Assembly (NCBI GenBank): GCA_964621395.1
Contig: CAZULS010000002.1
Span: 170,252-234,251, forward strand
Direction: 5' to 3'
DNA length: 64,000 nt
DNA from: an uncultured Candidatus Saccharibacteria bacterium
Lineage (GTDB): Bacteria; Patescibacteriota; Minisyncoccia; Phycocordibacterales; JACNGX01
The notes beneath the pieces were generated by a model that did not search any database, was not told where the DNA came from, and was given only the letters and a program-made list of their open reading frames with translations. Positions 5,834 to 59,094 of this stretch are shown piece after piece. Each line of letters opens with the position of its first letter. The stretch's first letter is position 1. Both the position numbers and the translations under genes were made by a program.

Positions 5834-5842
5834 CAAAATACG

Positions 5843-14687: not shown

Positions 14688-14740
14688 AACTTGTTGTGCT
14701 TTAGGGTCATTCCCGCCTCCGAGCGGGAATCTTCTCTGGT
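14688..14740. repeat. tandem REP-like palindromes: family 2 (gcccgagcacaacttgttgtgctttagggtc) fused to family 1 (gtcattcccgcctccgagcgggaatc)
   Basis: Both families recur many times in the window (see findings). Confidence 0.7.
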
Positions 14741-14915: not shown

Positions 14916-15048
14916 TTTGGACAAAACCGCCGATGAGCGTGAGCTCATCGGTGGTTTATGTTTGATATTTTTCTTTTTTACGTGCCCGAGCACGACTTGT
15001 CGTGCTTTAGGGTCGTTTATAGTTTAACGTTTATCGTTCATCGTTCAC

Positions 15049-15657
15049 TTAAATCCGTACCGCACGAAACGATGCAATCACACCGTTCCCCTCAGGTCCG
15101 GGAAGAAGCATGTCTCCCTCGGCGCTAAACATTTCATCGCCATTATCATCATATGCGGTGATGTAATAGGTATTACTTGCTTCAGTGTTGCGAAGAAGGT
15201 CTATCCATACGCCCTCATGATTTCCCTCTTGGAGTCGCGCTGCACCCAAAATATTGCCCAGTTCACCATTATTGTCTTCCTGGACGGCAATCCATACGGT
15301 ACGATCCGCTGAAACACTGTTGACAAAAACGTGCAATCCCTCCGGCTGCTCAAGAGCGGTTGCGGAAACAGCCAAGATGTCGTTGATAGACGGCTTGGTG
15401 CTTGTGCCGTTCTCGTTCCCCGCTTCCTTCTCATTTGTGTTTTCGGTTTCTTCCGTGTCTTCGGCAATTGCGCCGGTATTGTCACTTACAGAACGATTAT
15501 CCCAGAGATAATGACCACCGAATCCGATTAATATACCGATAATAAAGACGGTCCACATGCGTGCAGTCGATGACGCGCCGCGTGCTTCCGTGTCGTTGTT
15601 GTGCTGTGTGTTTTCCATAATACGCCTATAGTACTCGTTCAGCACACCCCCTGTCAA
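15049..15657 (-). CDS. hypothetical membrane-anchored protein
   Basis: 202 aa. One N-terminal TM helix (MWTVFIIGILIGFGG), then an acidic, polar extracytoplasmic domain. Confidence 0.5.
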   Translation of the reverse strand: MTGGVLNEYYRRIMENTQHNNDTEARGASSTARMWTVFIIGILIGFGGHYLWDNRSVSDNTGAIAEDTEETENTNEKEAGNENGTSTKPSINDILAVSATALEQPEGLHVFVNSVSADRTVWIAVQEDNNGELGNILGAARLQEGNHEGVWIDLLRNTEASNTYYITAYDDNGDEMFSAEGDMLLPGPEGNGVIASFRAVRI

Positions 15658-18241: not shown

Positions 18242-18258
18242 ATAACAGCTCTTTTGAA

Positions 18259-23800: not shown

Positions 23801-24238
23801 CCATTGTGTCCATTTGTAATACGCTGGATTGGTGGTGTTGATTTCACGTTCCCAATCATAGGAGAGGCCGATGATGGAGAGTTGCTTTTTATATCGCGCG
23901 ACATTCTCTTTCGTACACACTGCCGGATGGGTTTTGGTTTTCAGTGCGTAGTTTTCAGCGGGCAAGCCGAAAGCATCCCATCCCATCGGATGAAGCACAC
24001 TATATCCTTCCATTCTTTTTTTACGTGCGATTACATCGGTGGCAATATAGCCCTTCGGATGACCCACGTGAAGTCCTTGACCCGACGGATACGGAAACAT
24101 ATCCAAAATGTATGCCTTCTTGGGATTTGTGAGACTCTCGGGCGTACGATACACACCCTCCTCTGCCCATTTTTTCTGCCACTTCTTCTCAATGGATACG
24201 TGATCGTATTTCATAGGATTTGTGCACAAGCTGTACAA
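20825..24238 (-). CDS. leuS: leucyl-tRNA synthetase with inserted alpha/beta serine-hydrolase and Nudix hydrolase domains
   Basis: 1137 aa. HMGH (HVGHPKGY), KMSKS (KMSKRFGN), the LeuRS CP1 editing motifs TTRADT and GSGAVMAVPSHDERD, and the anticodon-binding domain. A hydrolase with GHSRGG is inserted at about 22970-23500. A perfect Nudix box GGVDEGEDLPEAARREIIEETGY is inserted at about 22124-22597. Confidence 0.9.
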   Translation of the reverse strand: MYSLCTNPMKYDHVSIEKKWQKKWAEEGVYRTPESLTNPKKAYILDMFPYPSGQGLHVGHPKGYIATDVIARKKRMEGYSVLHPMGWDAFGLPAENYALKTKTHPAVCTKENVARYKKQLSIIGLSYDWEREINTTNPAYYKWTQWAFLKMFEKGLAYESDEPINWCPSCKTGLANEDLEGTMCERCGTETEKKSMRQWVLRITDYADRLLEDLEGLDWPESIKESQRNWIGKSVGTEIDFPIVSEEKRRVIIMHGKDTSPKEKWYPWISQELESLGYMVEIPELPSPEDPDIKEWLDVLDSLKLDSNTILVGHSRGGVAVMRYLEQLKDSEQIAKVVLVSTNSGKAEKSSKGFFSETGYDFSKIKKHCNEFIVIHSKDDEWVPFSAGEENARGLDARLCTFEDKGHFGKKTPEVPEILREVTDSLTVFTTRADTLFGCTYAVVAPEHPLIENNESRITNYDDIRDYVATARKKTEIERTAEGKEKTGVKIEGIEAINPANGEHIPVFVGDYVLGDYGSGAVMAVPSHDERDFAFAKKYNLPINDVVIPDIVDVKNPPREGKETVARTMIHGIVHDPKTDKYLCLEWPKQNWTTFITGGVDEGEDLPEAARREIIEETGYTNIEFVRSLGSAVRNQFFAAHKDENRLAFVHAMLFTLVDDTQEEVDEEERAQHTPTWLSWEEIGKRENLACAEFPIWERRKDGRIPFTSDGWVVDAGEFSHMTSAEARVAITTWLEEKGVGRSKTTYKLRDWVFSRQRYWGEPIPIVHCEECGAVAIPESELPLTLPEVESYEPTDTGESPLASIVEWVNTTCPKCGGKAKRETNTMPQWAGSSWYYLRFMDPHNDTALVDPEKEKYWSPVDTYVGGAEHATRHLIYARFWHKFLHDIGAVSESEPFARLQHVGLIGGEDGRKMSKRFGNVINPDDIVNTYGADTLRVYEMFMGAFDQDTQWSTENIMGSRRFVERVWKLAEKVSDEAPELPKKTETLLHKTIQKVGEDIDIFGFNTAISALMILANALEEESTLSKETYLTFLSLVAPFCPHSAEEIREHLGEEGSVVDIPWPSYDENKLADETLTIVVQVNGKVRGTFETSADTPPNKLEREAQKLPEIQKHIENKEIVKVITVPGKLVNIVIKT

Positions 24239-25541: not shown

Positions 25542-25831
25542 GAAAAAGTAAAGAGGAGGGGGAGGGTCAAGAATCTGCTCTCAGCCCTTGAAACGGCGTC
25601 TTCTTACAGGCGCCGTTAGTTTTTAGATAGCCGGTATTACGTCCAGCTTTTTCTTCTGTCTCGCAAATGACGGTGTACACTAGTATGCTGTCATCCCGCA
25701 CTTGATGCGGGATCCAGGCAGAAACAAAGTGGTTCATAAACTCTGGATTCCGGCTCGGGGGCCGGAATGACAAAATATTATGGAGATTCTGAAAGACAAC
25801 GTTGGGATAACGTTGTCCCAACGTTGTCTGG

Positions 25832-35436: not shown

Positions 35437-36021
35437 TTATACGATACCAAGTGCCAGATTAAGATACCGATACAGAAAGATACAGAGGACGACGAGTGCA
35501 ATGACCACGAAGAAAGCGAGGACAGTGAGGTTGTTTCCGGTTTGCTTTGCACCTTTTGCATTGGTATGGACGACCCCCACCTCATCTTCTTCTTCAGGAG
35601 TCCAACCGTGTGATGGTGGATGAATGGTCTCCTGCTCTCTGGCGGACGCTGAAGGAGGAAGCTCGCTCCCAACCTTTACGGTGTCGGGAATGTGTTGCGG
35701 AGCACCTTCAGGCATGCCGGGCGCGCGATATGCTCCTTTTTCAGGCTCACTCTGCTCTACCTCAGGAGATGTTTCTTCTCTTCGTGATTCTGGTGCGGGA
35801 GTAGAGTTTGTGGGAGGTATAGTATCGGCGCGCGCTTCGCGCGCGCCTTCTTCGACCGATTCTGTCTTGGCAGGATGTAGGTCTTCGACCGACCAAGCAT
35901 CACCCTCGCCGTCAGGCGAAAGTGATGCTTGGTTCAGGTCCTCGACCGATTTCGCTTCAGTATCACTATCCCCCTCATCAGGCCAAAACCGATTCGGATT
36001 GTTGGAAGTATTTTCATCCAT
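35437..36021 (-). CDS. acidic low-complexity protein with C-terminal TM anchor; contains palindrome-encoded SVEDL(H/N)P repeats
   Basis: 194 aa, a D/E/P-rich tail-anchored protein. The repeats SVEDLNQASLSPDGEGDAWSVEDLHPAKTE are encoded by nested DNA palindromes. Confidence 0.5.
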   Translation of the reverse strand: MDENTSNNPNRFWPDEGDSDTEAKSVEDLNQASLSPDGEGDAWSVEDLHPAKTESVEEGAREARADTIPPTNSTPAPESRREETSPEVEQSEPEKGAYRAPGMPEGAPQHIPDTVKVGSELPPSASAREQETIHPPSHGWTPEEEDEVGVVHTNAKGAKQTGNNLTVLAFFVVIALVVLCIFLYRYLNLALGIV

Positions 36022-36536
36022 ATATACAAGTATATCACGGAAAAACTTTATCTGTCATTGCAAATAAAATTATTTTCTGTCATTCCCGCCTCCGAGCGGG
36101 AATCTACAAAGTCGTATAGCCAACCTGCGTTTCTTCACAAATCTTCACACATTCTCGCTATGCGAAACTCAACTCCCTATAAAAACAAACACCCTATACC
36201 TGGTTGGTATAGGGCACCCTTTCCAAAGGTTAAACCTTTGGAAAGCCTGTATACCAAGGTTAAACCTTGGTATAGATGAGGGGTGTGCTGAAAACACACA
36301 GCGGCGCCAAAGGCACCGCTGTGTGTTTTGTTTGATTTTGTCATTCCGTACTTGATACGGAATCTTCCCAAACAATTTCTAAAAATAAGATAGAGGAGAT
36401 TCTGAATCGCCAGAGCCCCACTTTCACCAACAAGCGTTTTCAGTAAAATACTCTCTTTTTTCTTCTATCGTTTCTCCTTTCTTGCTTATTCAGTGAAAGT
36501 GAAGCTCGGCAAGAGTTCAGAATGACAGGGAGATAA

Positions 36537-38129
36537 TTATTCCTCTCCCTGTATATTAGGTTGGTTTTGAGACATGGTACCCTCTCCTTTCTTATCCAAT
36601 TTGCGCTTGATGCACCAAATGATGAGCACGAGCAATAGAATCGCGAGCGGAATAATCGGACAGAAGATGCCAAAGAGATAGAGGATAAAGATTGCGATAA
36701 CGTCACACAGAATCCAGAGACGCAAATCTTCTTCCCTACTCACCTCGTAGCCATGCTTTTCTCGCCATGCCCGATACAATCGCCAAATGATTGCAATGAT
36801 AACAAGAACGAGGATAAACCAGAATGCGCACATGGCAAGTTCGGCAAAGCTTGCCGGCAAAAATCCAAGACCTGCCGGAAGGAGTCCGTTGCCGTCGTCT
36901 TTCAGAAGCTCTTCCTCCTCGCCTCCACCACCTGGAAGGACGTTTTCTTGTGAGGGAGGTGTATAGGTTCCGCCACCCACTGTGCCTCCATCGGCAAGTG
37001 GTCCGCCTGTTCCTCCCTCGGCCGATCCTGCTTCAGCAGGATTTAGGCCTCCTCCATCATCACTCGGTCCGCTTTCGTCTCCATAGGGAATGGTAAATTC
37101 ATGCTGATAGCTTACAGTCGCCGGCGAAGCGTGCGAAACCACACGATACACATACGTGCCGCCCACTTCCAAACCGGTAAGGGTGACTTCATGGTGTGTG
37201 ACCAACGTTGGGTCTTCTGTCGTGGCGTGCGGATACCCAAAATTCGGCTGTGTGAGGTTGATACTGTATGGATAGCCTGCCGCGGGATTACCGTCGCCAT
37301 GAGTCTTGAGTCCGTAAATAACCTGACTGGTCGCCGGCTCAAGTGCACCGTTGCGGTATGTTTCCCATCGAATAATTGCTTCACCACTTGCATCACCGAT
37401 TGCCGTCGGCGACGGTGTGCTCAAGTCGGCAACTCGCTCATTGGCGATAGTAAGCGGCGAGCTCTCAATAATACCGCCACCACCTCCACCGGAGCCGCCT
37501 CCTCCACCTCCGTTTCCGCCGCATGAGCCACAGTCGGAAGGACAAATTTCGCACGATTCATCGCCGTTACACGTGCCATCACCGCAGTACGGATCCTCTC
37601 CGTCGCTGATTTGCGTACCGCAGACATAGCCATTAGGGTCTTCAAAGCCGACACAAATATCAAACGACAAGCTCTTTTCCTGCATGTCATTACCGGTCAA
37701 TTCTTCGAAAGAAACCGTATAGGTATAGATAATTGTTTGACCAGGGTCAATATCGCCGAGCGACACTTCGCCGTCATCAAGGAAATTGCCAAAGAAGTCG
37801 TTGTACCACTCTATACTCGTCACATTATCGGTAATCACCAGCGTCATGTGATCACCTAAGCCGTCAGGATCGGATTCGAAGATGGTATCGGTGTGTACGG
37901 TTTCCGTCTCACTGCCATTGTTGGTCACATGCGCCGTACCCACGGCAGTATCGCCGGGGAGAAAATTGGTTTCGCCAAACATGGCCGTTGAGGATGCCAC
38001 GCCATTGAAAAGCACCTCAAGATTTCCATTTGCATGTGCGGTGGAAGACCCAACAAACAGTCCCATCGCCATAACGGTGAAGAGCAGTCCTCCGAGAAGC
38101 GTATTGTGCATGAATGTATTCATAGTCAT
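36537..38129 (-). CDS. secreted surface protein with Cys-rich knot, poly-Gly linker, beta-rich domain and C-terminal TM/Cys-rich tail
   Basis: 530 aa. An N-terminal signal/TM segment, CGDGTCNGDESCEICPSDCGSCGGNGGGGGGSGGGGGG, and the in-frame palindromic repeat GGLNPAEAGSAEGG. Confidence 0.6.
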   Translation of the reverse strand: MTMNTFMHNTLLGGLLFTVMAMGLFVGSSTAHANGNLEVLFNGVASSTAMFGETNFLPGDTAVGTAHVTNNGSETETVHTDTIFESDPDGLGDHMTLVITDNVTSIEWYNDFFGNFLDDGEVSLGDIDPGQTIIYTYTVSFEELTGNDMQEKSLSFDICVGFEDPNGYVCGTQISDGEDPYCGDGTCNGDESCEICPSDCGSCGGNGGGGGGSGGGGGGIIESSPLTIANERVADLSTPSPTAIGDASGEAIIRWETYRNGALEPATSQVIYGLKTHGDGNPAAGYPYSINLTQPNFGYPHATTEDPTLVTHHEVTLTGLEVGGTYVYRVVSHASPATVSYQHEFTIPYGDESGPSDDGGGLNPAEAGSAEGGTGGPLADGGTVGGGTYTPPSQENVLPGGGGEEEELLKDDGNGLLPAGLGFLPASFAELAMCAFWFILVLVIIAIIWRLYRAWREKHGYEVSREEDLRLWILCDVIAIFILYLFGIFCPIIPLAILLLVLIIWCIKRKLDKKGEGTMSQNQPNIQGEE

Positions 38130-38134
38130 GGTAT

Positions 38135-40609
38135 TTAGGCGGTCTCTTCGCCGTTATCTGATAATGTGTCATCTTCGACAGAAGTGTCCGGCTCGTTTCC
38201 GGTGTCGGAATCACTCTCATGTTCTGAAGAGTCGCCTGATTCTTCATGTGTTTCTTGAGAAGTATCATCTTCGGTGGGCGGTACATCTTCTGTTGTTTGG
38301 GCATCATGCTGATCTTCCAGAGGTGTGTCCTCTTCTCGCAGTGCTTCTTGCTCATCTTCCTCTACGGCAGAACCGGGCATCTCTTCTTCACTTTCTTCTT
38401 CGACCGATCCCGCTTCAGCATCGCTTGAATCTTCTTCCTCCGTATTCTCGGAAACTGTCTCCTCAGAGCCTTGTGTTTCGACATCCTCAGACTCGTCAGA
38501 AGCGGCAGTATCCGTGCCCTGTTCTTCACTCTCGGCCGATTCGCCCGACTCTGATTCCTCATCTTGAGAAGCTGTTTCGTCGTTCTCCTCGCCAACTTCA
38601 TCTTCCTCGACCAATCCTGCTTCAGCAGGACTGAGGTCTTCACCGTCTTCATCTCCTTCGCCCGATTCTGACGCATCACCTTCTTCATTGTCCTCATTAT
38701 TTTCAGAAGCCGTCGCGCTACCGTCATCAGCTGCTCCATCCTCAGCACCCGCGCCATCACTATCATCACCGGAATCCGAAGCACCGTCAGTACCATCGTC
38801 ACCGAGCATCATCGTATCACCTGATTCAACATCCGAACCCTCGGCCGATCCAGCTTCAGCTGGATGTAGGCTTTCCTCAGGCACAATCTCAATCGCCGGC
38901 ACCGCATAGGAAGCTGCATCCGGCACCTCTTCCCCTTCGTAGACAACCACAAGTCGTGTACCTGTGAGCTCATACCCGTCTGCCTCCGCTGTGTACACAA
39001 TCTCGTATACCCCCGCCACAGCGGTATCAACAGTTCCTTCCGTGTGCACGCTCATATCAGCACCCGAAGCATTCAAAACGCGCGCACCCATATCGCTATA
39101 CGAAGAACCAAGTGCCACAAGAGCCGGATTGTTGCCCACAATCTCCATTTCCGGCATCGGCTCATCCTCCGCCGGCACCGGCGTCATAAGCGGCTCGTCC
39201 ATCATCGCTTCAATCGGGAACGGATCCCATACACGACCACTAAAGGTAAAGGCATGTACCATTGGATTTTCCGGTCCGTATGCCACAAGTTTAATCCAGA
39301 TATTACCCACAAATCCGCTTGGCACCGTCCAGTCGTATTCTCCGGTATTACCAATACCCGTTGCAATCACGTGCTCGGTATCACCGTCGTCAATCACTTC
39401 ATCAGCATTGATATCGCGAATGTACGAAAGATCAATAGAGAGATCTCCGTCAGGACCGTTGTGGTTCTCTGCATTCCATTCAATGGTATAGGTGTATGTC
39501 CAGTACCATGTTTGTGAATTGTCGTTTTCATCGGGATTGAGCATATCCACGCTCGGCGGAAGAAGCTCACTCCAGTCCGCAGGTGTGTCGGTGTCGGTTC
39601 CCGAAGGATTACGCGCAAGCATGCCGCCCTCTTGCACAAGAGGTGCAGCCGGATCCCATACCGCCGTGTCGTCTCCCCAACCCACAGCATCAATCACCAC
39701 ACCATCGGGGCGCTTCAAAAGCAAATGGTCGCCATCGTTTGCCAAACCGCCACCGATTGCATTGTCGTCAATCTCAATCTTCACCACCTCATCCGGAATA
39801 TTCCAATAATCCCATGTCGTGCTCGTTGCTGAAATCACCGCATATCCGCCGGCGGGAATTGCCGGCGTGGACGTTGGCATAACATCACATGATGTATTAT
39901 CACACAGTTCCCACTCGGCAAATTCAAGCGGTACATCCGTCTGATTGAAAATCTCTATCCATTCATTCGCCGGCTCACTGCCGAGAGACGGCGCAACATC
40001 ATAATACACCTTATTGATACGCAATCCCCATGAGCTAATGGTATTTTCCACCTTTTCTGTATCGTAATATCCACCGAGCATGTATCCCGGCAGTTCCTTT
40101 TGCCAACCGTCGTACACAATATCAAACGAGCAAATCTTATTCTGATGATTTACCGGCGACGTGAGTGTGTAGTGCCAGGTGCCGAGGGTGTCTGCATCCG
40201 GTGCACTGGAAAACGCGGTAAGCGCACCATTATAGTATGTAGTCGAATCGTATTCGGCTTTAATATTCAAATCGTCACAGTAGTCGACATCGCCCGCCAT
40301 ATTATCAGCATGAGCGACGTAGTAAAAATCAGTACTGGTGCCTTCGTCGATAATTTCAATGTCTCGAAAACCGGTATTGCCGTAGAAAAGGTCTGCCTCC
40401 GATTCCGGCGGAGTCCAACTCGTCGGCTCCAAACGAAAGTCCAGCATATGCGCCGCAAAAAGATTGCCGTCTGAGCGTTCGGTATCGTTGTAGTAGCCAA
40501 ACGTCTCACCCACCGCCGAGAGCCCGGCGGCATTCATGCCCACAACAAGAAACACGGCGACGATGCGTCGAATTGCTTCTTGAATGTATTGTTCGTTAAG
40601 ACGAGTCAT
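38135..40609 (-). CDS. SipW-cognate (TasA/camelysin-like N-terminus) surface protein with lamin-tail domain and long acidic C-terminal tail
   Basis: 824 aa. The N-terminus GETFGYYNDTERSDGNLFAA parallels the AFFSDTETSTGNTFTAG motif of SipW-cognate proteins. An LTD-like segment is present (NEWIEIFNQTDVPLEFAEWELCD..AIPAGGYAVIS). The C-terminal 260 aa are D/E/S-rich with LHPAEAG / LSPAEAG / SDAEAG repeats. Confidence 0.7.
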   Translation of the reverse strand: MTRLNEQYIQEAIRRIVAVFLVVGMNAAGLSAVGETFGYYNDTERSDGNLFAAHMLDFRLEPTSWTPPESEADLFYGNTGFRDIEIIDEGTSTDFYYVAHADNMAGDVDYCDDLNIKAEYDSTTYYNGALTAFSSAPDADTLGTWHYTLTSPVNHQNKICSFDIVYDGWQKELPGYMLGGYYDTEKVENTISSWGLRINKVYYDVAPSLGSEPANEWIEIFNQTDVPLEFAEWELCDNTSCDVMPTSTPAIPAGGYAVISATSTTWDYWNIPDEVVKIEIDDNAIGGGLANDGDHLLLKRPDGVVIDAVGWGDDTAVWDPAAPLVQEGGMLARNPSGTDTDTPADWSELLPPSVDMLNPDENDNSQTWYWTYTYTIEWNAENHNGPDGDLSIDLSYIRDINADEVIDDGDTEHVIATGIGNTGEYDWTVPSGFVGNIWIKLVAYGPENPMVHAFTFSGRVWDPFPIEAMMDEPLMTPVPAEDEPMPEMEIVGNNPALVALGSSYSDMGARVLNASGADMSVHTEGTVDTAVAGVYEIVYTAEADGYELTGTRLVVVYEGEEVPDAASYAVPAIEIVPEESLHPAEAGSAEGSDVESGDTMMLGDDGTDGASDSGDDSDGAGAEDGAADDGSATASENNEDNEEGDASESGEGDEDGEDLSPAEAGLVEEDEVGEENDETASQDEESESGESAESEEQGTDTAASDESEDVETQGSEETVSENTEEEDSSDAEAGSVEEESEEEMPGSAVEEDEQEALREEDTPLEDQHDAQTTEDVPPTEDDTSQETHEESGDSSEHESDSDTGNEPDTSVEDDTLSDNGEETA

Positions 40610-40785
40610 GTACCTAGGAAATTAGGAGATTAATAAGTTAGGAGGTTAGTATTCGCGCGCTAACGCGCGCTCCTCATATTCACCAAAGCAAACGGCTAAT
40701 TCAAGCTTTGCCCGAGCACAGCTTGCTGTGCTTTAGGGTCATTTTTTGTTTGGTTTTTGATATTTTTCTTTTTATCGTTCATCGT

Positions 40786-41367
40786 TTATAGTTTATCGTT
40801 TACAGAGTCAGCGTGTCCTTCACTATCTATTTCTCCACCACCATCCTCTTTCTTACCACGCCCCTTCCGCACCTCCTTAATTATCTTCCACACCTCATCC
40901 ACAATAATCGCCCCCGCGGGAATCACAATAAGGAGAAAGAATCCAATCGGTTTTTTCGCAAAATCAATAATATATCCAAGATAGGGAATGGAAAACAGCA
41001 CCTTTCCAATCACTTCCCCTTCACCAACCTCGCGCACATCCGGATCTTCATTGGCATCTCCCTTCGTTTGAAAGAGCGTCTGTCCCGCTTCGACACGCAT
41101 GTCAACAATACGGTGCGTCGTTGGAACCTTCTCACGTGTGTCTTCGCCGAATGTGATAATGTCGTCGATGGCATACATGCTCTGCGGCAAAATGACAGCC
41201 AAACTCCCCGTGTGAATTGCCGGCTCCATCGAACCCGACGACACAATCTTCACCTGGACATTCCCCTTCATCGGAATGAGCGAGAAGACAAGAATGGCGG
41301 CGATGCAGAGAACGGCAGCCGTAAACGCATAATATGCGATTTTCCAGATGGTATTGATGAGGTTCAT
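40786..41367 (-). CDS. sipW: signal peptidase I, SipW-type (archaeal/eukaryotic-like S26B)
   Basis: 193 aa. N-terminal TM, the catalytic Ser box VSSGSMEPAIHTGSLAVI, His in TTHRIVD, and a C-terminal TM. It is adjacent to three SipW-cognate proteins. Confidence 0.8.
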   Translation of the reverse strand: MNLINTIWKIAYYAFTAAVLCIAAILVFSLIPMKGNVQVKIVSSGSMEPAIHTGSLAVILPQSMYAIDDIITFGEDTREKVPTTHRIVDMRVEAGQTLFQTKGDANEDPDVREVGEGEVIGKVLFSIPYLGYIIDFAKKPIGFFLLIVIPAGAIIVDEVWKIIKEVRKGRGKKEDGGGEIDSEGHADSVNDKL

Positions 41368-41571
41368 ACTCTATATAGCTGTCATTCTGGCCTCCGAGCC
41401 GGAATCTTCGCTATTGCGGACGATTACACCAGTTTTTAGTTGTTAGTTTGTAGTTTTTAGTCCGCGCACTTCGTGCGCTCCTCCACACCCTCTTTTGTCA
41501 TTCCCGACTTGATCGGGAATCTTCGCGATACCAAAGTTAAACATTTGTATCGCCTTCCAACCGACGCCCTA

Positions 41572-41726
41572 GCGAGGCGCCTGATACTAGATTTATGTGT
41601 TTCGAAATGTTAATAGACCGCTCAGCAACATAGCTTCGAGCAGTACATATTATCCAACATCGTCATCAATCTAGTATCAGGCGCCTCGCACACGGTCCCT
41701 AAAACGTAGCAAGCTATGTTTTAGGG
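41572..41726. repeat. large structured element: 21-bp perfect inverted repeats (gcgaggcgcctgatactagat ... atctagtatcaggcgcctcgc) enclosing a 76-nt loop, followed by a second 14-bp hairpin
   Basis: Read directly. A single copy in the window, intergenic between sipW and the next TasA-like gene. Confidence 0.55.
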
Positions 41727-41779
41727 AGCCGCATACGCAAGCGCCGTTTTCAATCAGTAAGTTTTTTCAAAGAATCTGT

Positions 41780-43099
41780 TTATTGAGGAGTGGTAGGAAT
41801 AACCACATCCGCACAATTAAATCCATCATTATTACGCTGCTGTTCCGCATACGCAACAAATTCAGAAATAACCTTGTCCGTCTGTGCTATGTCACCCATA
41901 CCACTTCCACTACAAGTAATGGGATCTGAATCACCGGTGTTTTGAGGACCGGTCTGCGTACCTGCACACCAATCAAAGCCAATAAGACTTACCGGCGTGT
42001 TCGGAAGAAGCGGCATAGCAATCATGTTTTGTTGAATTTGATCGAATGAAGTTCCTGCCGGAACATACACCGTCTCAGAAACATCATACATATTGTTTGC
42101 ATTCGCATCACCCCAAACGAAGAATTCAAGTTCTCCGGAGAGTTCACCCACAGCGTCAGTCGTGTCGTTGGCTTCAATTTCCGGATCAATACGAGTATTT
42201 TCATCGTCGACGATATTGTGCGGGAAGAGACATGAATATGCCTCGTTGCCATACACATGAAGTGAGATAATGCTCTTGCCCCAGTCACCCGGCTTCACAT
42301 CGTTGAAGTTCCAAAATGTTTCGCCGCTCAAGTCTGTTTCACTCCAAAGAGTACACGTACCCCCATAAGTGTATGTGTCATCACAATCAAGTGTTACAAG
42401 AGATATATCGTCAAGATATCCTCCGAGAGTGTCTTGCTGTGAACCGGCATCTGTGAAGCTCACGGTGGTTTGTGCATCAAGAGCGACAAAGTCGTAGGTG
42501 TACTCTTTCCACACTGTACCAGAACCACTATACGAAGGCTGTCCAATGACATCGTTCACCATGACACCGCTTGTTGATGTCACAAGAACACCAAGTTCAA
42601 TTGCATTGTCGGTGTCGGGACCATTGTTCGGTCGCGGTGAGTGGTAGAAAGTGAGACGGTATTGCTGACCGGGCACAGTATCAACCACCTGTTCAATTCC
42701 CGAGGCGCTATCACCGGGAGTATGGCTGTCGAGTTCAGCAAGCTGATTTCCACTATGTGGTGCACCAGCAGCATTATTCTGGATTTCAAGGCCTGCAGAA
42801 CCGCCGGTTACGTCCCAACTCGTGAGTGAGCCGTCGGGATACACAGCCCATTGTCCATTGCCAAGCGCCGGCGTTTCGAATCCGCCGTTTACAATAAGTT
42901 CCGTGTCTCCCTCAACACAGTTATTACACACTTCGCCATTGTACTCAGCGTATGTGTGGTCTACCTTCAAATCAACAGAACCCGCCGTGAAGACATTGCC
43001 TGTGGACGTTTCCGTGTCGTTGTAGAACGCCACCGTAGCGCCTGCGACAACCACACCGACAAGAGCGATAGTCGCAATTCCTGTAAATAATCTGTTCAT
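41780..43099 (-). CDS. SipW-cognate TasA/camelysin-like secreted protein
   Basis: 439 aa. Signal peptide, then ATVAFYNDTETSTGNVFTAGSVDLKVD, the hallmark N-terminal motif of the TasA/CalY (peptidase M73-like) SipW substrates. Confidence 0.75.
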   Translation of the reverse strand: MNRLFTGIATIALVGVVVAGATVAFYNDTETSTGNVFTAGSVDLKVDHTYAEYNGEVCNNCVEGDTELIVNGGFETPALGNGQWAVYPDGSLTSWDVTGGSAGLEIQNNAAGAPHSGNQLAELDSHTPGDSASGIEQVVDTVPGQQYRLTFYHSPRPNNGPDTDNAIELGVLVTSTSGVMVNDVIGQPSYSGSGTVWKEYTYDFVALDAQTTVSFTDAGSQQDTLGGYLDDISLVTLDCDDTYTYGGTCTLWSETDLSGETFWNFNDVKPGDWGKSIISLHVYGNEAYSCLFPHNIVDDENTRIDPEIEANDTTDAVGELSGELEFFVWGDANANNMYDVSETVYVPAGTSFDQIQQNMIAMPLLPNTPVSLIGFDWCAGTQTGPQNTGDSDPITCSGSGMGDIAQTDKVISEFVAYAEQQRNNDGFNCADVVIPTTPQ

Positions 43100-43172
43100 G
43101 TTTTAGGAAGTTAGCTTGCAGCTGATAGCTTTTAGGGTCGTGTGCTCACGCACACTCTTTCTCTCTGTCATC

Positions 43173-43240
43173 CCGTACTCTTGCCGAGCACTTTTTTCGC
43201 TTTAGCGAAAATGGTGCTTGGTGATACAGAATCTTCGTAG
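43173..43240. repeat. family-5 nested palindrome (about 68 bp), copy 1 (inverted relative to copies 2 and 3)
   Basis: tgtcatcccgtactcttgccgagcacttttttcgctttagcgaaaatggtgcttggtgatacagaatc. Copies are at 45690-45757 and 52315-52384. Confidence 0.65.
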
Positions 43241-43386
43241 ATCCTGAATCAAGTTCAGGATAACGAGTTTATCGTTTACCGTTTATAGTTTATCGTTTAC
43301 AAAATCAGCCACACCCAACTCATTTATCTGTCAAAACCCCGAAGGGCAACACCACAATCGCTCACGCGATTGTGGTGTTTGAAAGA

Positions 43387-44802
43387 TTAGTCAACTTGAA
43401 CCAAGAGACCAAACTGTTCTCCCCCGCTTCCCGTGGGAGTTGTTGACCATGTCGCTGTAACTTGACCTGTAAGAGTGAAGCCATCAGCAAGCTGAGTGTC
43501 GCCACTAATGACAAGAGAGCCCTTATCACCTGCTCCTGATGCAGAAGTTGAATCAGGACCGACAGGACTCATGCCGTCAAGTTGAACATTTGCCAGTACG
43601 AGTGATGCGTCGGGAGCATCTGAATTAACCTTCAAAGTAAGACCAAGGTTAGAGCCATCAACTGCCGGAACCGTAGTCACAGCGTTTACAGACTTATCAC
43701 CAACAGTAAACGTTGCATTGCCTGCACCATCGTACGTCAGAGTGAAGTCTTCTGTCACACCGCTACGCCACAAACCTGTTGCGTTATCAGTATGTGTCTG
43801 TGCGATTGGACTACCTCCTCCCGGAAGTCCAATGCGAATTTCGTTTTGTGCAGCAGTTGTTCCTCCGTCACCATAGCGTGCATCTGCTTGCCATGATTCA
43901 TCAAACGAACCCACAGAACTTGCCCATGTTTCGCCTTCCACGGAGGTGATATCGCGAGGGTTCATGCTTGAACACACGAAGTCTCCATTGTTACGTGACT
44001 GTACAGCGTAGAATTCTACATCCACTTCCATACCATCGGTTTGGGTGAGGTTGGTAGTGTTTGCACCGCTACAAGTGAAACCGGTACCACGATCGAGCGG
44101 ACCGTTCTGCCCGGTCTTTCCCTCGTTGTCCTGGGTGACAGCGGCTTCTGCCATGTCACCAAGACACCAGTATTTTGCAATGTAGTGTACCGGCTCATTG
44201 TTGTCACCACCGGCGATGGGACCGCCCGTCTGTGTCCATACATTGTATTGGGAGTCTGCGAGTGCAATGTAACTGCCGTCAAAGAGAGTTGCAGCAGAAC
44301 CTTGTCCCATGAAGATGTATTCACCACCATCGGGACCCTCATACACATTGTCACCATCGTCGTTCCAGAATGCGAATTGGAGCTCGTCCTGAAGCTCGCC
44401 GTCAGTTTCTACGGCACAGGAGTCGTCTACTTCACCTTCCGGCTCTGTACATTCATTGTCTGGTGTCGCCGTGATATCAATCGCCATACATGCATACGCA
44501 TCATTGTTGTTGACATGAATGGAGATGGTGTCTTCACCGCGGTCACCTGGCTTGATGTCGAGGAAATTGAAGAAAAGACCCATGTCCTCATCAATACCCC
44601 AGGACGTAGCAGGGCTTGCCACCAAGTCACCGTCCATGTTGGTGACATAGCTTTCATTGTCGATCTTGAGATCAATCGCGCCGGCGGTGAATGTGTTGCC
44701 GGTTGATGTCTCCGTGTCGGAGAAGAATGCGCCTGTTGCGCCTGCGACTGCAACGCCCGCAAACACAAGCATCGCAATACTCATAAAGAGTTGTTTGTTC
44801 AT
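43387..44802 (-). CDS. SipW-cognate TasA/camelysin-like secreted protein
   Basis: 471 aa. ATGAFFSDTETSTGNTFTAGAIDLKIDNES after the signal peptide. Confidence 0.75.
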   Translation of the reverse strand: MNKQLFMSIAMLVFAGVAVAGATGAFFSDTETSTGNTFTAGAIDLKIDNESYVTNMDGDLVASPATSWGIDEDMGLFFNFLDIKPGDRGEDTISIHVNNNDAYACMAIDITATPDNECTEPEGEVDDSCAVETDGELQDELQFAFWNDDGDNVYEGPDGGEYIFMGQGSAATLFDGSYIALADSQYNVWTQTGGPIAGGDNNEPVHYIAKYWCLGDMAEAAVTQDNEGKTGQNGPLDRGTGFTCSGANTTNLTQTDGMEVDVEFYAVQSRNNGDFVCSSMNPRDITSVEGETWASSVGSFDESWQADARYGDGGTTAAQNEIRIGLPGGGSPIAQTHTDNATGLWRSGVTEDFTLTYDGAGNATFTVGDKSVNAVTTVPAVDGSNLGLTLKVNSDAPDASLVLANVQLDGMSPVGPDSTSASGAGDKGSLVISGDTQLADGFTLTGQVTATWSTTPTGSGGEQFGLLVQVD

Positions 44803-45689
44803 AAATAATCAGTAGAACAGTAATCAGTATGTCGGGATATGAGTATGTATAGAGGATAAAAAAAGTTATCCACAGTTCTTTCCAAAGGTTTAACCTTTGG
44901 AAAACAATATATCTATTCCGACATATCCGAATACTGCAATGAATAAACGAATAAGAAGTATATTTTGAGCGGAGCACAAAAAAACTCTCCACCCGAAATA
45001 CGCTTACAAAGCTGATAAAAAGTGAAAGAGCCAAAGGATCTATGCTGCTATTATATTTTTGTGAGCGCGCGGAAAGTGTTTGTACGTTCGCTGTATTTCG
45101 CACTCGGTAGAACCGAAGACATTCGCCTCGACTCGACCGAGCACGAACATATGGATGTGTTCGCGCACCACATGTTCTCAATTCAAAGTAATGTTTTTCA
45201 GTATCCGAATCGTTTCTCCCCTGCACATAATTGTACTCCTCAGAGAAAAGTGATTCAAATGAAAATAAAGTTGGGAAAGGAAACGGACGGTTCGTCAATC
45301 TCCATGTGACGAAGGATTGAGACGGTATGCCTGACATTGCGTGTCGCGGGTTACCCGACCGCTTGTGTTTTGGCACTGTCTTGAACCGCCTGTATCTTCC
45401 TTCCCCAACATTAAAAAAGAGTCTACTTCCCATACTCTACCCCTCCCGCATATTGTCAAGACCCAAAACAAAGCCCAACATGTCCTTTATGATGTGTCAA
45501 TCTGTTGCCTAAAGGACACCCAAAAAACCCTGCAAAAGAAAGCCCAAAATCCCCTGTCCCTTACATGTCCGATAGAACATATCAAAATACAAAAATAAAA
45601 TATCAAACAAAAACGTAATCCGAAATCTCGCAGACAAAACCAAAGACTATCTTTGGTATGCATACCAAAGATAGTCTTTGGTTTTGTAA

Positions 45690-45757
45690 GATCCCGCATC
45701 ACCAAGCGCCATTTTCACTAAAGTGAAAAAAGTGCTCGGCAAGAGTGCGGGATGACA
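45690..45757. repeat. family-5 nested palindrome, copy 2
   Basis: gatcccgcatcaccaagcgccattttcactaaagtgaaaaaagtgctcggcaagagtgcgggatgaca. Confidence 0.65.
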
Positions 45758-45855
45758 AGCGGCGCGGTCCTTTAGGACCGCGCCGCTTGTCTTTCTGTCA
45801 CGAGTCTCGTGCCAAGGCTTAACCTTGGTCAACCACAAAACATTAGATTGTCAAG

Positions 45856-45890
45856 CAAAAGGGCGGCTCCGAAGGAGCCGCCCTTTTTGC
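45856..45890. terminator. bidirectional Rho-independent terminator (caaaagggcggctcc gaag gagccgccctttttg)
   Basis: A perfect 10-bp GC stem with a GAAG loop, flanked by A and T runs, just 3' of the Fic gene. Confidence 0.7.
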
Positions 45891-45901
45891 TTTGCGGTAA
45901 C

Positions 45902-46774
45902 TCATTCCCCGATTTTCCACTCTCCCTTTTCAAGAAATGCTTCAATCGTTTGCCGCTTTGCCTTATTGAGCAGATTGGAATGTGAAAGTTTACGTTTCTT
46001 TGCATACTCTTTCAATGAGACAATCTGTTTCCCCTCAAGATAGGCAAGCCGTTTATGGTAACTGCGCGCAAGCGCCCGAGCAACGATTTCTTCCATGGGT
46101 TTTGTTTCTTTTTTGGTGTCAAATGCTTTGAACGCATCATAATAGAGAGCACGGTTTTCAAAAGCGATATTTATCGGTACATATCCTTCGCGAATAAAAA
46201 GGTAGTTGTTGAGCACACGTCCGATACGTCCGTTTCCGTCAACAAATGGATGAATACGTTCAAACGTAAGATGAAGTCGCGCAACGCGCTTTACAATATG
46301 TTCGTTTGTGCGCGCGTGATATGTCGCGAGCATGTCGGTTATCAGTGTTTCAATATCTTTCGGATCTGCACCGATATGCGACCCAACGCGTACCCATTCC
46401 CCTTCCGCACGAAATCTGCCGGCAATATCATCACGAATATTGCTGATAAGCATGCGATGGAGAAGAAGTATCATGTCCGTTGAAAGCTCGCTTTCTTTCG
46501 CCTTCCCTTCCATATATTCAACGACACGCGCAAGGTTTTTCGCTTCAAAAATTTCTCGTTCATTCACAAAACGCTCCAAATCAATCTGGAGAAGAATCTT
46601 TTCAGTCTCTTCAAGAGTGAGTGTACTGTTTTCAATCGCATTTGAGTTGTACACATGCTCGGGAACTTCCGCGGCATTGATTGTTGCAATGAGAGACTCT
46701 TTCCCCGGGAGTGCTGCATAATACCGCTCCCTAAGAGATTGAATTGCTGAAAATGTGTGAGATTTTCGTGGCAT
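45902..46774 (-). CDS. Fic/Doc-family protein (putative AMPylase)
   Basis: 290 aa. Canonical Fic motif HPFVDGNGRIGR (HPFx[DE]GNGR). Confidence 0.85.
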   Translation of the reverse strand: MPRKSHTFSAIQSLRERYYAALPGKESLIATINAAEVPEHVYNSNAIENSTLTLEETEKILLQIDLERFVNEREIFEAKNLARVVEYMEGKAKESELSTDMILLLHRMLISNIRDDIAGRFRAEGEWVRVGSHIGADPKDIETLITDMLATYHARTNEHIVKRVARLHLTFERIHPFVDGNGRIGRVLNNYLFIREGYVPINIAFENRALYYDAFKAFDTKKETKPMEEIVARALARSYHKRLAYLEGKQIVSLKEYAKKRKLSHSNLLNKAKRQTIEAFLEKGEWKIGE

Positions 46775-52314: not shown

Positions 52315-52384
52315 GGATCCTGAATCACCAAGTACCATTTTCACTAAAGCGAAAAAAGTGCTCGGCACGAGTTCAGGATGACGA
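52315..52384. repeat. family-5 nested palindrome, copy 3
   Basis: ggatcctgaatcaccaagtaccattttcactaaagcgaaaaaagtgctcggcacgagttcaggatgacg. Confidence 0.65.
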
Positions 52385-58889: not shown

Positions 58890-59094
58890 ACGAGAGCTTA
58901 TAGCTGATAGCTTTTAGCTTATAGGCGCGCGCTTCGCGCGCAGTTTTTATCGTTATGAGTTTCGAGCAAGTGGTTTACACCCTTATCCGGGGAAAATTCG
59001 AGAAGTTGTTAGTTTTTAGTGAGTAGTTGGTAGTGCCGCGCGAGCGAAGCTCGCGCGGCTTTTATCGTTTATAGTTTTTCGTTTAATCGTTCAC

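What the first reader, a model, noticed from the sequence alone, without database searches (positions are those of the whole stretch)
36537..44802. Co-directional cluster of a SipW-type signal peptidase with three SipW-cognate TasA/camelysin-like proteins and further giant acidic surface proteins
The cluster holds sipW (40786-41367), whose S26B Ser box is SSGSMEP. Three proteins have the hallmark post-signal motif of SipW substrates: AFYNDTETSTGNVFTAG (41780), AFFSDTETSTGNTFTAG (43387) and a degenerate YYNDTERSDGNLFAA (38135). The 38135 protein also has a lamin-tail domain and a 260-aa poly-acidic tail. A 530-aa Cys-knot, poly-Gly surface protein (36537) and a tail-anchored acidic protein (35437) complete the run, all on the same strand. 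In Bacillus, SipW plus TasA builds biofilm or spore-coat amyloid-like fibres. A comparable sipW-centred cassette in a reduced-genome organism would be a candidate extracellular fibre or adhesion system, possibly for host attachment.
Basis: partly seen in the sequence, partly recalled or inferred. Interest (0 to 1): 0.7.

Follow-up and report, generated by a model that had tools for sequence, protein, structure and literature searches.

The report
SipW-dependent TasA-like surface fibre operon
This is a conserved five-gene cassette of an ultra-small Patescibacteria (CPR) bacterium that most likely builds a sugar-binding surface fibre related to the Bacillus biofilm fibre TasA; the kind of system is known, but this CPR version has not been studied experimentally.

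Summary
Five co-directional minus-strand genes encode two TasA-like proteins (A 43387-44802, B 41780-43099), an ER/archaeal-type SipW signal peptidase (40786-41367), and two accessory proteins (C 38135-40609, D 36537-38129).

A and B pass the curated SipW-cognate signal model. The A core is closest to the TasA fibre subunit in fold searches. A ends in a legume-lectin-like domain, and B has a DUF642 sugar-binding-like module inserted between the N-terminal strand and the core.

C is not TasA-like in its core. It has a SipW-type signal and donor-strand motif followed by a different beta-sandwich, a lamin-tail domain, an Ig-like domain and an acidic tail, which makes it an analogue of TapA. D lacks the donor motif, has a sandwich domain homologous to that of C, and is anchored in the membrane at its C-terminus.

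The order TasA-like (2-6 copies) -> SipW -> C-like -> D-like recurs in Patescibacteria genomes. SipW was present in 62 of 62 related loci with enough downstream sequence, and in 23 of 65 it is fused in frame to its presumed substrate.

Best reading: a donor-strand-exchange adhesive fibre with shaft, tip/initiator and membrane base. It is a new variant of a known kind; databases already name these proteins. Fibre assembly and host attachment are inferred, not shown.

The parts
43387..44802 (-). Gene A (471 aa), TasA-like shaft subunit, paralogue 1. It has a SipW-type signal peptide and donor-strand motif (aa 1-42, AFFSDTETSTGNTFTAG), a jelly-roll core (aa ~43-285, with a KPGD motif and 4 invariant Cys), and a C-terminal legume-lectin-like 'choice-of-anchor W' domain (aa ~297-471).
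41780..43099 (-). Gene B (439 aa), TasA-like shaft subunit, paralogue 2. It has a SipW-type signal and donor strand (AFYNDTETSTGNVFTAG). A DUF642/choice-of-anchor-C jelly-roll module (aa ~68-233) is inserted between the donor strand and the TasA-like core (aa ~262-432).
   Evidence: TIGR04088 scores 29.3 against 19. DUF642 scores 32.1 against 27, and PF12389 matches aa 3-49. The core is homologous to the A core (BLASTP 3e-22, 32% identity). Comparable insertions occur in 16 of 118 family members and are enriched in the last copy before sipW (11 of 36).
40786..41367 (-). sipW-type (S26B, ER/archaeal-type) signal peptidase I, 193 aa. The predicted catalytic residues are Ser46 (SGSMEP), His85 (THR) and Asp104/Asp110 (GDANEDPD). 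It has N- and C-terminal membrane helices.
   Evidence: TIGR02228 scores 100.2 against 51.85. The SipW Bacillus equivalog NF046067 scores 111 against 190, which is below cut-off. The LepB model scores 19 against 47. It aligns to human SEC11A/C at E 2e-9 across the Ser, His and Asp boxes. Ser, His and both Asp are invariant in 65 orthologues.
38135..40609 (-). Gene C (824 aa), TapA-like accessory and putative initiator/tip. Domain order: N-terminal membrane helix; SipW-type donor-strand motif (aa 39-53, YYNDTERSDGNLFAA); beta-sandwich with 2 invariant Cys (aa ~80-195); lamin-tail domain (196-312); bacterial Ig-like domain (489-556); 260-aa acidic tail (565-824).
   Evidence: LTD and Bact_surface_Ig-like are found by Pfam. 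The donor-strand HMM scores 15.1 bits against a shuffle maximum of 6.6. Eight of 20 family members hit TIGR04088. A C-like gene follows sipW in 36 of 53 loci. The C-like domain sits in the same reading frame as SipW in 7 loci, and a further 16 SipW ORFs are long fusions. The model has pLDDT 61 and matches generic Ig-like sandwiches, including donor-strand-complemented fimbrial subunits.
36537..38129 (-). Gene D (530 aa), putative membrane-anchored base. Domain order: ordinary AXA-type signal peptide; beta-sandwich homologous to that of C but without a donor-strand motif (aa ~34-165); Cys-rich and poly-Gly linker; FN3-like domain (245-346); Gly/acidic stalk; two C-terminal membrane helices.
   Evidence: Pur_ac_phosph_N scores 31.9 against 30. 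Its N-terminal domain matches the L001 protein in the same position at E 6e-13. The family has 801 representatives at E <= 1e-3, and 120 of 126 full-length members have a C-terminal membrane helix. hhalign against the C-like domain gives 92%, E 7e-7; against the TasA-like core it gives only 2%. None of the 12 D-like proteins scanned has a clear donor-strand hit; the best is marginal at 3.2 bits.
35437..36021 (-). Gene E (194 aa), an acidic protein with a C-terminal membrane helix. It is adjacent and co-directional but probably not part of the system.
   Evidence: It has no Pfam or NCBIfam hit and no homologue in any related locus. Its only link to the cluster is a weak copy (62%) of the 50-nt coding repeat shared with C and D.

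Best explanation
This is a SipW-dependent, TasA-superfamily surface-fibre operon of a Patescibacteria (Parcubacteria/Paceibacteria-type) bacterium.

**Shown**
- The peptidase is ER/archaeal-type and carries an invariant Ser/His/Asp set.
- A and B carry curated SipW-cognate signals, followed by a conserved strand motif. In A this leads into a core closest in fold to TasA, and B shares that core by sequence.
- Both A and B carry lectin/CBM-like modules.
- C carries the same strand motif on a different sandwich domain. D has the homologous sandwich, no strand motif, and C-terminal membrane helices.
- The gene order is conserved across many genomes.

**Inferred mechanism**
1. A, B and C are exported by Sec. 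SipW cleaves them at about residue 24-26 (...ATG(A)|FFSD...), which frees the N-terminal segment.
2. In TasA the corresponding segment (residues 28-38) is the donor strand that inserts into the next subunit.
3. A and B would polymerise head-to-tail by donor-strand exchange into a shaft. Their lectin-like (A) and DUF642 (B) modules would decorate its surface and bind glycans, for example on a host cell.
4. C can donate a strand but has its own complete sandwich. Like TapA, it would nucleate or cap one end. After cleavage it is no longer membrane-bound, so it would sit distally and display its lamin-tail domain, Ig-like domain and acidic tail.
5. D cannot donate a strand and stays in the membrane. 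It would take up the last free donor strand and tether the fibre to the cell.
For: **Peptidase type**
- TIGR02228 passes and the LepB model fails.
- It aligns to SEC11A/C across the catalytic boxes.
- Ser46, His85, Asp104 and Asp110 are invariant in 65 orthologues.

**Substrates**
- TIGR04088 is above cut-off for A and B.
- The donor-strand HMM hits C at 15.1 bits against a shuffle maximum of 6.6. It hits 39 of 43 C-like proteins above 3 bits and gives no clear hit in the 12 D-like proteins scanned (best 3.2 bits).
- hhalign of the A family against B. subtilis TasA aligns signal plus donor strand over 48 columns at 87% probability.

**Fold**
- In the A model the core has pLDDT 80-95 while the N-terminal 40 residues are unpacked.
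- TasA fibre 8aur_A is the only Foldseek hit with probability 1.00.

**Synteny**
- 376 species-representative genomes encode a relative.
- The order T(2-6) -> SipW -> C-like -> D-like is co-directional.
- SipW is present in 62 of 62 loci with at least 1.5 kb downstream, at a median gap of 20 nt. C-like is present in 36 of 53 loci and D-like in 13 of 38.
- SipW is fused in frame to a downstream membrane helix plus SipW-type motif in 23 of 65 loci. This is a Rosetta-stone link between enzyme and substrate.

**Variable adhesin-type add-on domains in the family:** Reelin-B-like, SpaA, VWA, MAM and DUF642.

**Literature**
- TasA residues 28-38, right after the SipW cut, form the donor strand, and the TapA N-terminus supplies the first strand (PMC9674648; PMC10151520).
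- TasA-superfamily loci commonly hold a dedicated SPase I, a tip protein and a membrane anchor (bioRxiv 10.64898/2026.01.04.697558).
Against: - No fibre, cleavage or binding has been observed; everything is in silico.
- Beyond the first ~50 residues there is no sequence-level similarity to TasA. PF12389 covers profile positions 3-53 only, a family profile finds no PDB sequence, and the TasA equivalog scores 13 against 450.
- Whether the core has an open acceptor groove could not be examined, because no multimer prediction was available.
- The C model has only moderate confidence (pLDDT 61, from a 6-sequence alignment), and its fold matches are generic.
- D is not detectably related to the TasA-like core (2%), so its role as strand acceptor is a guess.
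- D-like genes were found in only about a third of loci.
- Promoter and terminator scans were no better than chance, so operon status rests on co-direction and conservation alone.
Confidence: 0.6

Rival explanations
1. A, B and C are SipW-processed secreted or cell-surface lectin-like proteins that act as monomers or as a loose coat (adhesins, glycan scavengers, a cell-envelope layer). They share only the export signal with TasA and do not polymerise by strand exchange.
Against: The post-cleavage motif is far more conserved than export needs: S33, N36 and G41 are invariant, and G35, T37 and F38 are nearly so, in 111 sequences. It corresponds to the TasA donor strand (PMC9674648). It is unpacked in the monomer model. 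The same motif recurs on the accessory protein C and is absent from the membrane-anchored D. That pattern makes sense for an ordered polymer and not for independent monomers. Tandem paralogues followed by minor components resemble pilus operons.
Confidence: 0.2
2. The C-like protein is not a substrate. It is a non-cleaved accessory subunit of the signal peptidase, comparable to eukaryotic SPC22/23 or the DUF5305 proteins that are sometimes fused to SPase I in TasA-superfamily loci. On this view SipW may be the cell's general signal peptidase.
For: C-like genes lie directly after sipW, and SipW is fused in frame to downstream sequence in 23 of 65 loci. C has one membrane helix followed by an extracellular beta-sandwich, the same layout as SPC22/23. 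Fusions of an accessory protein to SPase I are described in bioRxiv 10.64898/2026.01.04.697558. No LepB-type gene was seen among the window ORFs that were scanned.
Against: The segment after the helix matches the substrate motif (15.1 bits here; 8 of 20 relatives hit TIGR04088). An uncleaved anchor would have no reason to keep that motif. C carries large outward-facing adhesin-type domains (LTD, Ig-like, acidic tail). No DUF5305 hit was found. TapA, a proven SipW substrate, is likewise encoded next to sipW (PMC10151520). The window covers only 64 kb, so the absence of lepB says nothing about the genome.
Confidence: 0.1
3. A and B are camelysin-type (M73) metalloproteases or other degradative enzymes, as some database names suggest.
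For: The Pfam family hit is named Peptidase_M73. One source names a homologue 'M73 family metallopeptidase'.
Against: The hit covers only the signal and N-terminal strand (profile positions 3-53 of 196). There is no HExxH motif in A to E. Fold matches are to the TasA fibre subunit and to lectins, not to proteases.
Confidence: 0.03
4. The cluster is a sortase-assembled Gram-positive-type pilus.
For: In the related locus L001 a sortase, SpaA/SdrD-like proteins and an LPTTG-bearing D-like protein lie in the same neighbourhood.
Against: There is no LPXTG motif in A to E, and no sortase among the scanned window genes. Only 8 of 126 D-like representatives have an LPXTG-like motif, while 120 of 126 end in membrane helices. 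A and B lack pilin/SpaA domains.
Confidence: 0.02

Closest known systems
Bacillus subtilis tapA-sipW-tasA operon (TasA donor-strand-exchange biofilm fibre; PDB 8AUR, 5OF1/5OF2)
   Different: The gene order differs: tasA-like x2, sipW, C, D here, against tapA, sipW, tasA. There are two to six tandem major-subunit paralogues rather than one. The subunits are about twice as large and carry appended or inserted lectin/CBM-like modules. There is no sequence similarity beyond ~50 residues. An additional membrane-anchored protein (D) is present. C is not detectably homologous to TapA and carries LTD, Ig-like and acidic-tail modules. In relatives SipW is often fused to its presumed substrate. The host is a Patescibacteria lineage, not a Bacillota species.
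Archaeal and bacterial TasA-superfamily filaments (AbpA bundling pili, AbpX, Tafi pili, Saci_0406 threads, cannulae)
   Different: Those families were defined in Thermoproteota, Methanobacteriota, Bacillota and Chloroflexota. The SPase I linked to AbpX has ten membrane helices, whereas this one has two. No DUF5305 accessory is present here. The lectin-decorated subunits and the C/D accessory families are specific to the Patescibacteria loci examined.
Chaperone-usher pili (for example Pap and Fim): tip adhesin, shaft, terminator/anchor
   Different: This is an analogy only. There is no chaperone, usher or outer membrane, no sequence homology, and the C model has moderate confidence.

Membership tests
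S26B / SipW-SEC11-type (ER/archaeal-type) signal peptidase I | Family HMM above the curated cut-off (TIGR02228 sigpep_I_arch) | tested here: met
   100.2 bits against a cut-off of 51.85.
S26B / SipW-SEC11-type (ER/archaeal-type) signal peptidase I | Catalytic Ser in an SxSMxP box, with His (not the Lys of LepB-type enzymes) as general base and conserved Asp residues | tested here: met
   SGSMEP, THR and GDANEDPD align with the SEC11A/C boxes. Ser46, His85, Asp104 and Asp110 are invariant in 65 orthologues. The LepB-type model TIGR02227 scores 19.1 against 47.
S26B / SipW-SEC11-type (ER/archaeal-type) signal peptidase I | Equivalog of Bacillus SipW (NF046067) | tested here: not met
   111.1 bits against a cut-off of 190. 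It is the same type of enzyme but not an orthologue-level match.
S26B / SipW-SEC11-type (ER/archaeal-type) signal peptidase I | Cleaves the neighbouring proteins at the predicted site | not testable with these tools
   This needs N-terminal proteomics or heterologous processing assays.
SipW-dependent-type signal peptide (TIGR04088, cognate_SipW) | HMM above the curated cut-off (19 bits) at the N-terminus | tested here: met
   A scores 22.1 bits (aa 11-42) and B scores 29.3 bits (aa 8-42).
SipW-dependent-type signal peptide (TIGR04088, cognate_SipW) | The same model applied to the 38135 protein (C) | tested here: not met
   C has no hit at E <= 0.1. However, 8 of 20 of its homologues hit at E <= 0.01, and a family-specific donor-strand HMM scores C at 15.1 bits against a shuffle maximum of 6.6. 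C has a diverged copy of the motif.
TasA/camelysin family (Pfam PF12389; TasA superfamily) | Pfam model above the gathering score over the whole domain | tested here: inconclusive
   A scores 24.9 and B scores 26.5 against 22.5, so both pass. The match covers only profile positions 3-53 of 196, which is the signal and N-terminal strand. The A-family profile finds no PDB sequence.
TasA/camelysin family (Pfam PF12389; TasA superfamily) | Jelly-roll core structurally similar to TasA | tested here: met
TasA/camelysin family (Pfam PF12389; TasA superfamily) | N-terminal donor strand directly after the signal cleavage site | tested here: met
The motif is invariant or nearly so in 111 homologues. It is unpacked in the monomer model (pLDDT < 50).
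TasA/camelysin family (Pfam PF12389; TasA superfamily) | Polymerises into fibres by donor-strand exchange | not testable with these tools
   No multimer prediction or experiment was available.
TasA/camelysin family (Pfam PF12389; TasA superfamily) | Equivalog of B. subtilis TasA (NF046066) | tested here: not met
   B scores 13.1 bits against a cut-off of 450, and A has no hit.
TapA-like initiator/anchoring accessory (functional class) | SipW-type signal with an N-terminal segment resembling the major subunit's donor strand, on a separate complete Ig-like fold, encoded next to sipW | tested here: inconclusive
   The motif criterion is met and the adjacency criterion is met. The fold is a beta-sandwich, but the model has pLDDT 61 and only generic matches. 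No sequence homology to TapA was detected, and Pfam finds only LTD and Ig-like domains.
Sortase-dependent pilus | LPXTG sorting signals and a pilus-specific sortase in the locus | tested here: not met
   There is no LPXTG motif in A to E and no sortase among the scanned window genes.
M73 camelysin metalloprotease (as named) | Metal-binding or catalytic motif and a protease fold | tested here: not met
   There is no HExxH motif. Fold hits are to the TasA fibre subunit and to lectins.

The most novel reading that the evidence does not exclude
Parcubacteria/Paceibacteria-type CPR bacteria assemble a chaperone-free, polar, modular pilus from TasA-like subunits. Its shaft would be studded with interchangeable lectin/CBM/VWA-type modules. 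It would have a TapA-like tip carrying a lamin-tail domain and a dedicated membrane base. This fibre, rather than or in addition to type IV pili, would be their main organelle for attaching to host cells. In many lineages the signal peptidase and its first substrate would be made as one polyprotein that cuts itself in cis.
Probability: 0.25. Interest if true: 0.65.

Novelty: new variant of a known kind. Interest (0 to 1): 0.45.

Why it matters
How ultra-small, host-dependent Patescibacteria attach to their hosts is largely unknown outside a few cultured Saccharibacteria. This cassette is conserved: the scan matched 376 of 185,579 species-representative genomes, and the A protein alone has about 2000 or more homologues. 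It is built like an adhesive fibre, with swappable glycan-binding modules on the subunits. That variability is what host-range determinants would be expected to show.

The cassette gives concrete targets: A and B as shaft, C as tip, D as base. These can be pursued by cryo-ET, antibodies, glycan arrays and multimer modelling in enrichment cultures.

It also places the TasA donor-strand-exchange architecture (dedicated peptidase, initiator, anchor) in a third large part of the tree. The SipW-substrate fusions offer a natural system for studying how cleavage is coupled to assembly.

Two limits apply. The kind of system is already known, and databases already label these proteins 'TasA family' or 'SipW-dependent signal'. 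The advance would therefore be one of scope and architecture, not of principle.

Tried and rejected
1. **Second, internal donor-strand-like motif in C.** I suspected that GGYYDTEKVENTISS, after the sandwich domain, might self-complement the domain. The donor-strand HMM found a second hit in only 1 of 43 C-like proteins, so I dropped the idea.
2. **D sandwich as a TasA-like core.** A shallow alignment gave hhalign 29% with a shared PGD motif. With 151 sequences this fell to 2%. It is not supported. D is homologous to C instead (92%).
4. **Homologue search with C residues 1-204.** It returned nothing. A 20-sequence profile returned only 5 proteins, so the C model rests on a 6-sequence alignment.
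5. **Sequence-level link of the A family to solved structures.** phmmer and a profile search found none.
6. **Promoter and terminator consensus scans across the cluster.** Counts were not above shuffles, so there is no statement on transcription units.
7. **The 70-nt inverted repeats bracketing gene A as a possible invertible segment.** They are copies of dispersed short repeats found elsewhere in the window, so this was rejected as cluster-specific.
8. **Exact-match look-ups of A and SipW in public assemblies.** Neither is on record. The AtpD protein matches only an unlabelled Logan contig. The organism is therefore placed only by the taxonomy of its homologues.
9. **Gene E as part of the system.** It has no conserved counterpart.


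Full report
**1. Observation**

The region holds six co-directional minus-strand ORFs:

| Gene | Coordinates | Length |
|---|---|---|
| A | 43387-44802 | 471 aa |
| B | 41780-43099 | 439 aa |
| SipW-like peptidase | 40786-41367 | 193 aa |
| C | 38135-40609 | 824 aa |
| D | 36537-38129 | 530 aa |
| E | 35437-36021 | 194 aa |

The surrounding window encodes ordinary housekeeping genes: LeuRS, CysRS, DnaB, RecR, F-type ATP synthase, YchF, a P-type ATPase and one tRNA-Ala. GC content is 44-52%. Named homologues of A all come from Patescibacteria metagenome-assembled genomes (Taylor-, Nomura-, Vogel-, Zambryski-, Kaiser-, Yonath- and Lloydbacteria, Minisyncoccia, Paceibacterota), one of them on a 717-kb contig. 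The organism is therefore a Parcubacteria/Paceibacteria-type CPR bacterium.

**2. The peptidase**

- It passes the archaeal/ER-type SPase I model (TIGR02228, 100.2 bits against a cut-off of 51.85). It fails the bacterial LepB model (19.1 against 47). It is below the Bacillus SipW equivalog cut-off (111 against 190).
- Its only relatives among solved structures are the human SEC11A/C catalytic subunits (E 2e-9). The Ser box (SGSMEP), His box (THR) and Asp box (GDxN...D) all align.
- Ser46, His85, Asp104 and Asp110 are invariant in 65 orthologues.

**3. Proteins A and B**

*Signals and domains.*
- Both pass TIGR04088, the curated SipW-cognate signal model (22.1 and 29.3 bits against 19).
- Both pass PF12389, but only over profile positions 3-53 of 196, which is the signal peptide plus the first strand.
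- The two proteins share that N-terminus (63% identity) and a ~200-residue core (32% identity, E 3e-22). In B a DUF642/choice-of-anchor-C module (aa 68-233) is inserted between the two.
- A ends in a 'choice-of-anchor W' domain (75.8 bits against 45).

*Structure of A.* An AlphaFold model built on a 50-sequence alignment has core pLDDT 80-95 and an unpacked N-terminal 40 residues.
- In Foldseek against the PDB, the only hit with probability 1.00 is the TasA fibre subunit 8aur_A (E 1.6e-3).

A family profile finds no PDB sequence.

*Other points.* There is no HExxH motif, so the 'metallopeptidase' name does not apply. In 111 family members, S33, N36 and G41 of the post-signal motif are invariant. 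G35, T37 and F38 are nearly so, as are the KPGD motif and four cysteines of the core. The C-terminal add-on domains vary: Reelin-B-like in 25 of 111, plus SpaA-like, VWA, MAM and DUF4215.

**4. What the conserved motif is**

In B. subtilis, SipW cuts TasA after Ala27. Residues 28-38 of the mature protein form the donor strand that completes the sandwich of the next subunit. TapA, the second SipW substrate, has a similar N-terminus and supplies the first strand, while its own Ig-like fold is already complete (PMC9674648; PMC10151520). The 'hallmark post-signal motif' is therefore the signal-cleavage site plus the donor strand. By the alignment, cleavage in A falls at about residue 24-26.

**5. 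Protein C**

- It does not reach TIGR04088.
- An HMM made from 152 mature N-termini of the A/B family scores C residues 39-53 at 15.1 bits. The maximum in 290 shuffled controls is 6.6.
- In related loci the gene directly after sipW encodes a homologue of the C N-terminal region (E 2e-7 to 8e-25). The family consensus there is ...S(V/I)GxT(V/I)SYFNDxExSxGNxLxAGxLDF.
- Eight of 20 members hit TIGR04088, and 39 of 43 hit the donor-strand HMM above 3 bits.
- The domain that follows (two invariant Cys) shows no relation to the TasA-like core (hhalign 0.7%).
- Downstream, C has a lamin-tail domain, a bacterial Ig-like domain and a 260-aa tail with 39% Asp+Glu and no Lys/Arg.
- LTDs occur in 19 of 43 C-like proteins and never in the A/B family.

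C is thus a SipW-cognate accessory protein analogous to TapA, not a third TasA.

**6. Protein D**

- It has an ordinary AXA-type signal and no donor-strand motif. None of the 12 D-like proteins scanned gives a clear hit; the best is a marginal 3.2 bits.
- Its N-terminal sandwich is homologous to that of C (hhalign 92%, E 7e-7). It is not homologous to the A/B core (2%). An earlier 29% with a shallow alignment did not hold.
- After the sandwich come a Cys-rich and poly-Gly linker, an FN3-like domain, a Gly/acidic stalk and two C-terminal membrane helices.
- Its family has 801 representatives at E <= 1e-3 in a library of 1.84 billion proteins. Of 126 full-length members, 120 end in a membrane helix and only 8 have an LPXTG-like motif.

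**7. Synteny**

A pattern scan of one genome per species found relatives of A in 376 genomes, and 79 loci were fetched. Six-frame ORFs were classified with iterated HMMs.
- The order is always T x 2-6 (mode 3) -> SipW -> C-like -> D-like on one strand.
- SipW is present in 62 of 62 loci with at least 1.5 kb after the last T gene, at a median gap of 20 nt.
- A C-like domain is present in 36 of 53 loci with at least 4 kb downstream, and a D-like gene in 13 of 38 with at least 6.5 kb.
- In 23 of 65 loci the SipW ORF is long (288-731 aa). It runs in frame through a cytoplasmic linker into a further membrane helix followed by the SipW-type motif. Seven of these have the C-like domain and eight have an LTD.
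- The membrane topology of such fusions is consistent. They are a Rosetta-stone argument that the downstream protein is the peptidase's substrate or partner.
- Gene E has no counterpart anywhere.

**8. Mechanism (inferred)**

Sec exports A, B and C, and SipW frees their N-terminal strands. A and B polymerise by donor-strand exchange into a shaft that displays lectin-like and DUF642 modules. C donates a strand but has its own complete sandwich, so like TapA it nucleates or caps one end. Because cleavage releases it from the membrane, it would be distal. D cannot donate a strand and remains in the membrane, so it would accept the last free strand and tether the fibre.

The overall logic of tip, shaft and base parallels chaperone-usher pili. 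It also matches what has been reported for other TasA-superfamily loci, which hold a dedicated SPase I, minor subunits, a tip and a membrane anchor (bioRxiv 10.64898/2026.01.04.697558). The roles of C and D, the polarity of the fibre and the glycan or host binding are all inference.

**9. Rivals**

- *Monomeric SipW-exported adhesins or a coat (0.2).* This fits the weak sequence link to TasA. It does not explain the extreme conservation of the post-cleavage strand, nor its presence on C and absence from D.
- *C as an uncleaved peptidase accessory subunit, like SPC22/23 or DUF5305 (0.1).* This fits the adjacency, the fusions and the topology. It does not explain why C keeps a substrate-type motif and carries adhesin-type domains.
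- *Camelysin-type protease (0.03) and sortase pilus (0.02).* Both fail direct tests.

**10. Novelty**

PF12389 homologues were already noted to be widespread in Patescibacteria (PMC9245690). Public records already name these proteins 'TasA family protein', 'SipW-dependent-type signal peptide-containing protein' or 'M73 family metallopeptidase'.

Full-text searches found no paper that analyses this cassette in CPR bacteria. The following appear not to have been described:
- the conserved five-part architecture;
- the two accessory families C and D;
- the lectin/CBM-decorated subunits, including the insertion between strand and core;
- the peptidase-substrate fusions.

I class it as a new variant of a known kind, of moderate interest.

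Noticed in passing
window 20825-24238 (-): The leucyl-tRNA synthetase is 1137 aa long. Besides the usual catalytic, editing and anticodon-binding domains, it gives Pfam hits to a serine hydrolase / alpha-beta hydrolase domain (aa 251-410) and a NUDIX domain (aa 588-687), which flank the editing domain (aa 422-553). These are unusual insertions for a LeuRS.
   Followed up: no
window 36077-36535, 40743-40812, 41372-41690, 43160-43310, 44878-44903, 45580-45830; further copies at 272-303, 14706-14732, 15013-15045, 25746-25772, 52324-52382, 59064-59085: The intergenic spacers of the cluster are packed with several families of short (16-70 nt) palindromic or hairpin-forming repeats. Examples are TGTCATTCC...GGAATCT units, CTTTCCAAAGGTTAAACCTTTGGAAA, and TTTATCGTTTA(C/T)... 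runs. One pair of 70-nt copies lies in inverted orientation either side of gene A. Copies occur elsewhere in the window, so this is a dispersed REP/MITE-like repeat class and is not specific to the cluster.
   Followed up: partly
window 37013-37062 (D), 38602-38651 and 38836-38885 (C), 38395-38444 (C), 35847-35896 (E): A 50-nt coding repeat (62-80% identical at the DNA level) encodes L-x-P-A-E-A-G-S-A-E-G. It is shared by the stalk or tail regions of C (twice clearly), D, and more weakly E. It could be a recombination footprint or a short functional motif. Its meaning is unknown.
   Followed up: partly
window 44803-45900: About 1.1 kb upstream of gene A has no convincing gene; the 253-aa ORF at 44672-45433 overlaps the start of A. 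The stretch is rich in perfect palindromes (45634-45687 and 45754-45791). It may hold the regulatory region of the cluster.
   Followed up: no
window 45902-46774 (-): A Fic/DOC-domain protein (290 aa, PF02661, 76.6 bits) lies directly upstream of the cluster on the same strand. It was not seen as a conserved neighbour in the related loci.
   Followed up: no
D-like family (P0126-P0275) and window D aa 495-520: Many D-like proteins have a second C-terminal membrane helix with a conserved Cys in a C-(P/I/V)-(I/V)-(I/L)-P-L context (window D: FCPIIPLAILLL). They also have a conserved (L/F)LA(A/S)xxG-type motif just before the first helix. This might be a sorting, lipidation or processing signal.
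   Followed up: no
L001/L004 (GCA_964620905.1 contig CAZUKA010000001.1), locus positions 1994-8113 and 16279-18297: In the closest long-contig relative, the cassette is flanked upstream by VWA/SpaA-like (1138 aa) and SdrD_B/SpaA-like (829 aa) proteins. Downstream lie a sortase and a separate LTD protein. There the D-like protein carries LPTTGG before its membrane helix. So in some lineages the base may be sortase-anchored.
   Followed up: partly
SipW fusion ORFs in L010, L051, L053, L063, L071, L081: The cytoplasmic linker between the SipW domain and the downstream membrane helix contains a conserved R-x-M-D-(E/D)-(I/V)-F-V-P-(M/I/V) motif. Its function is unknown.
   Followed up: no
window 61025-62758 (-) and 15049-15657 (-): The window holds further predicted surface proteins: a 577-aa protein with a signal peptide and a weak Big_13 Ig-like hit, and a 202-aa DUF7282 protein.
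   Followed up: no
record titles of L003, L004, L008 and others: Several third-party-annotated MAGs that carry this cassette are titled 'uncultured Gammaproteobacteria' or 'Candidatus Saccharibacteria'. Their gene content and closest homologues are Parcubacteria/Paceibacteria-like. The record-level taxonomy is probably unreliable.
   Followed up: no
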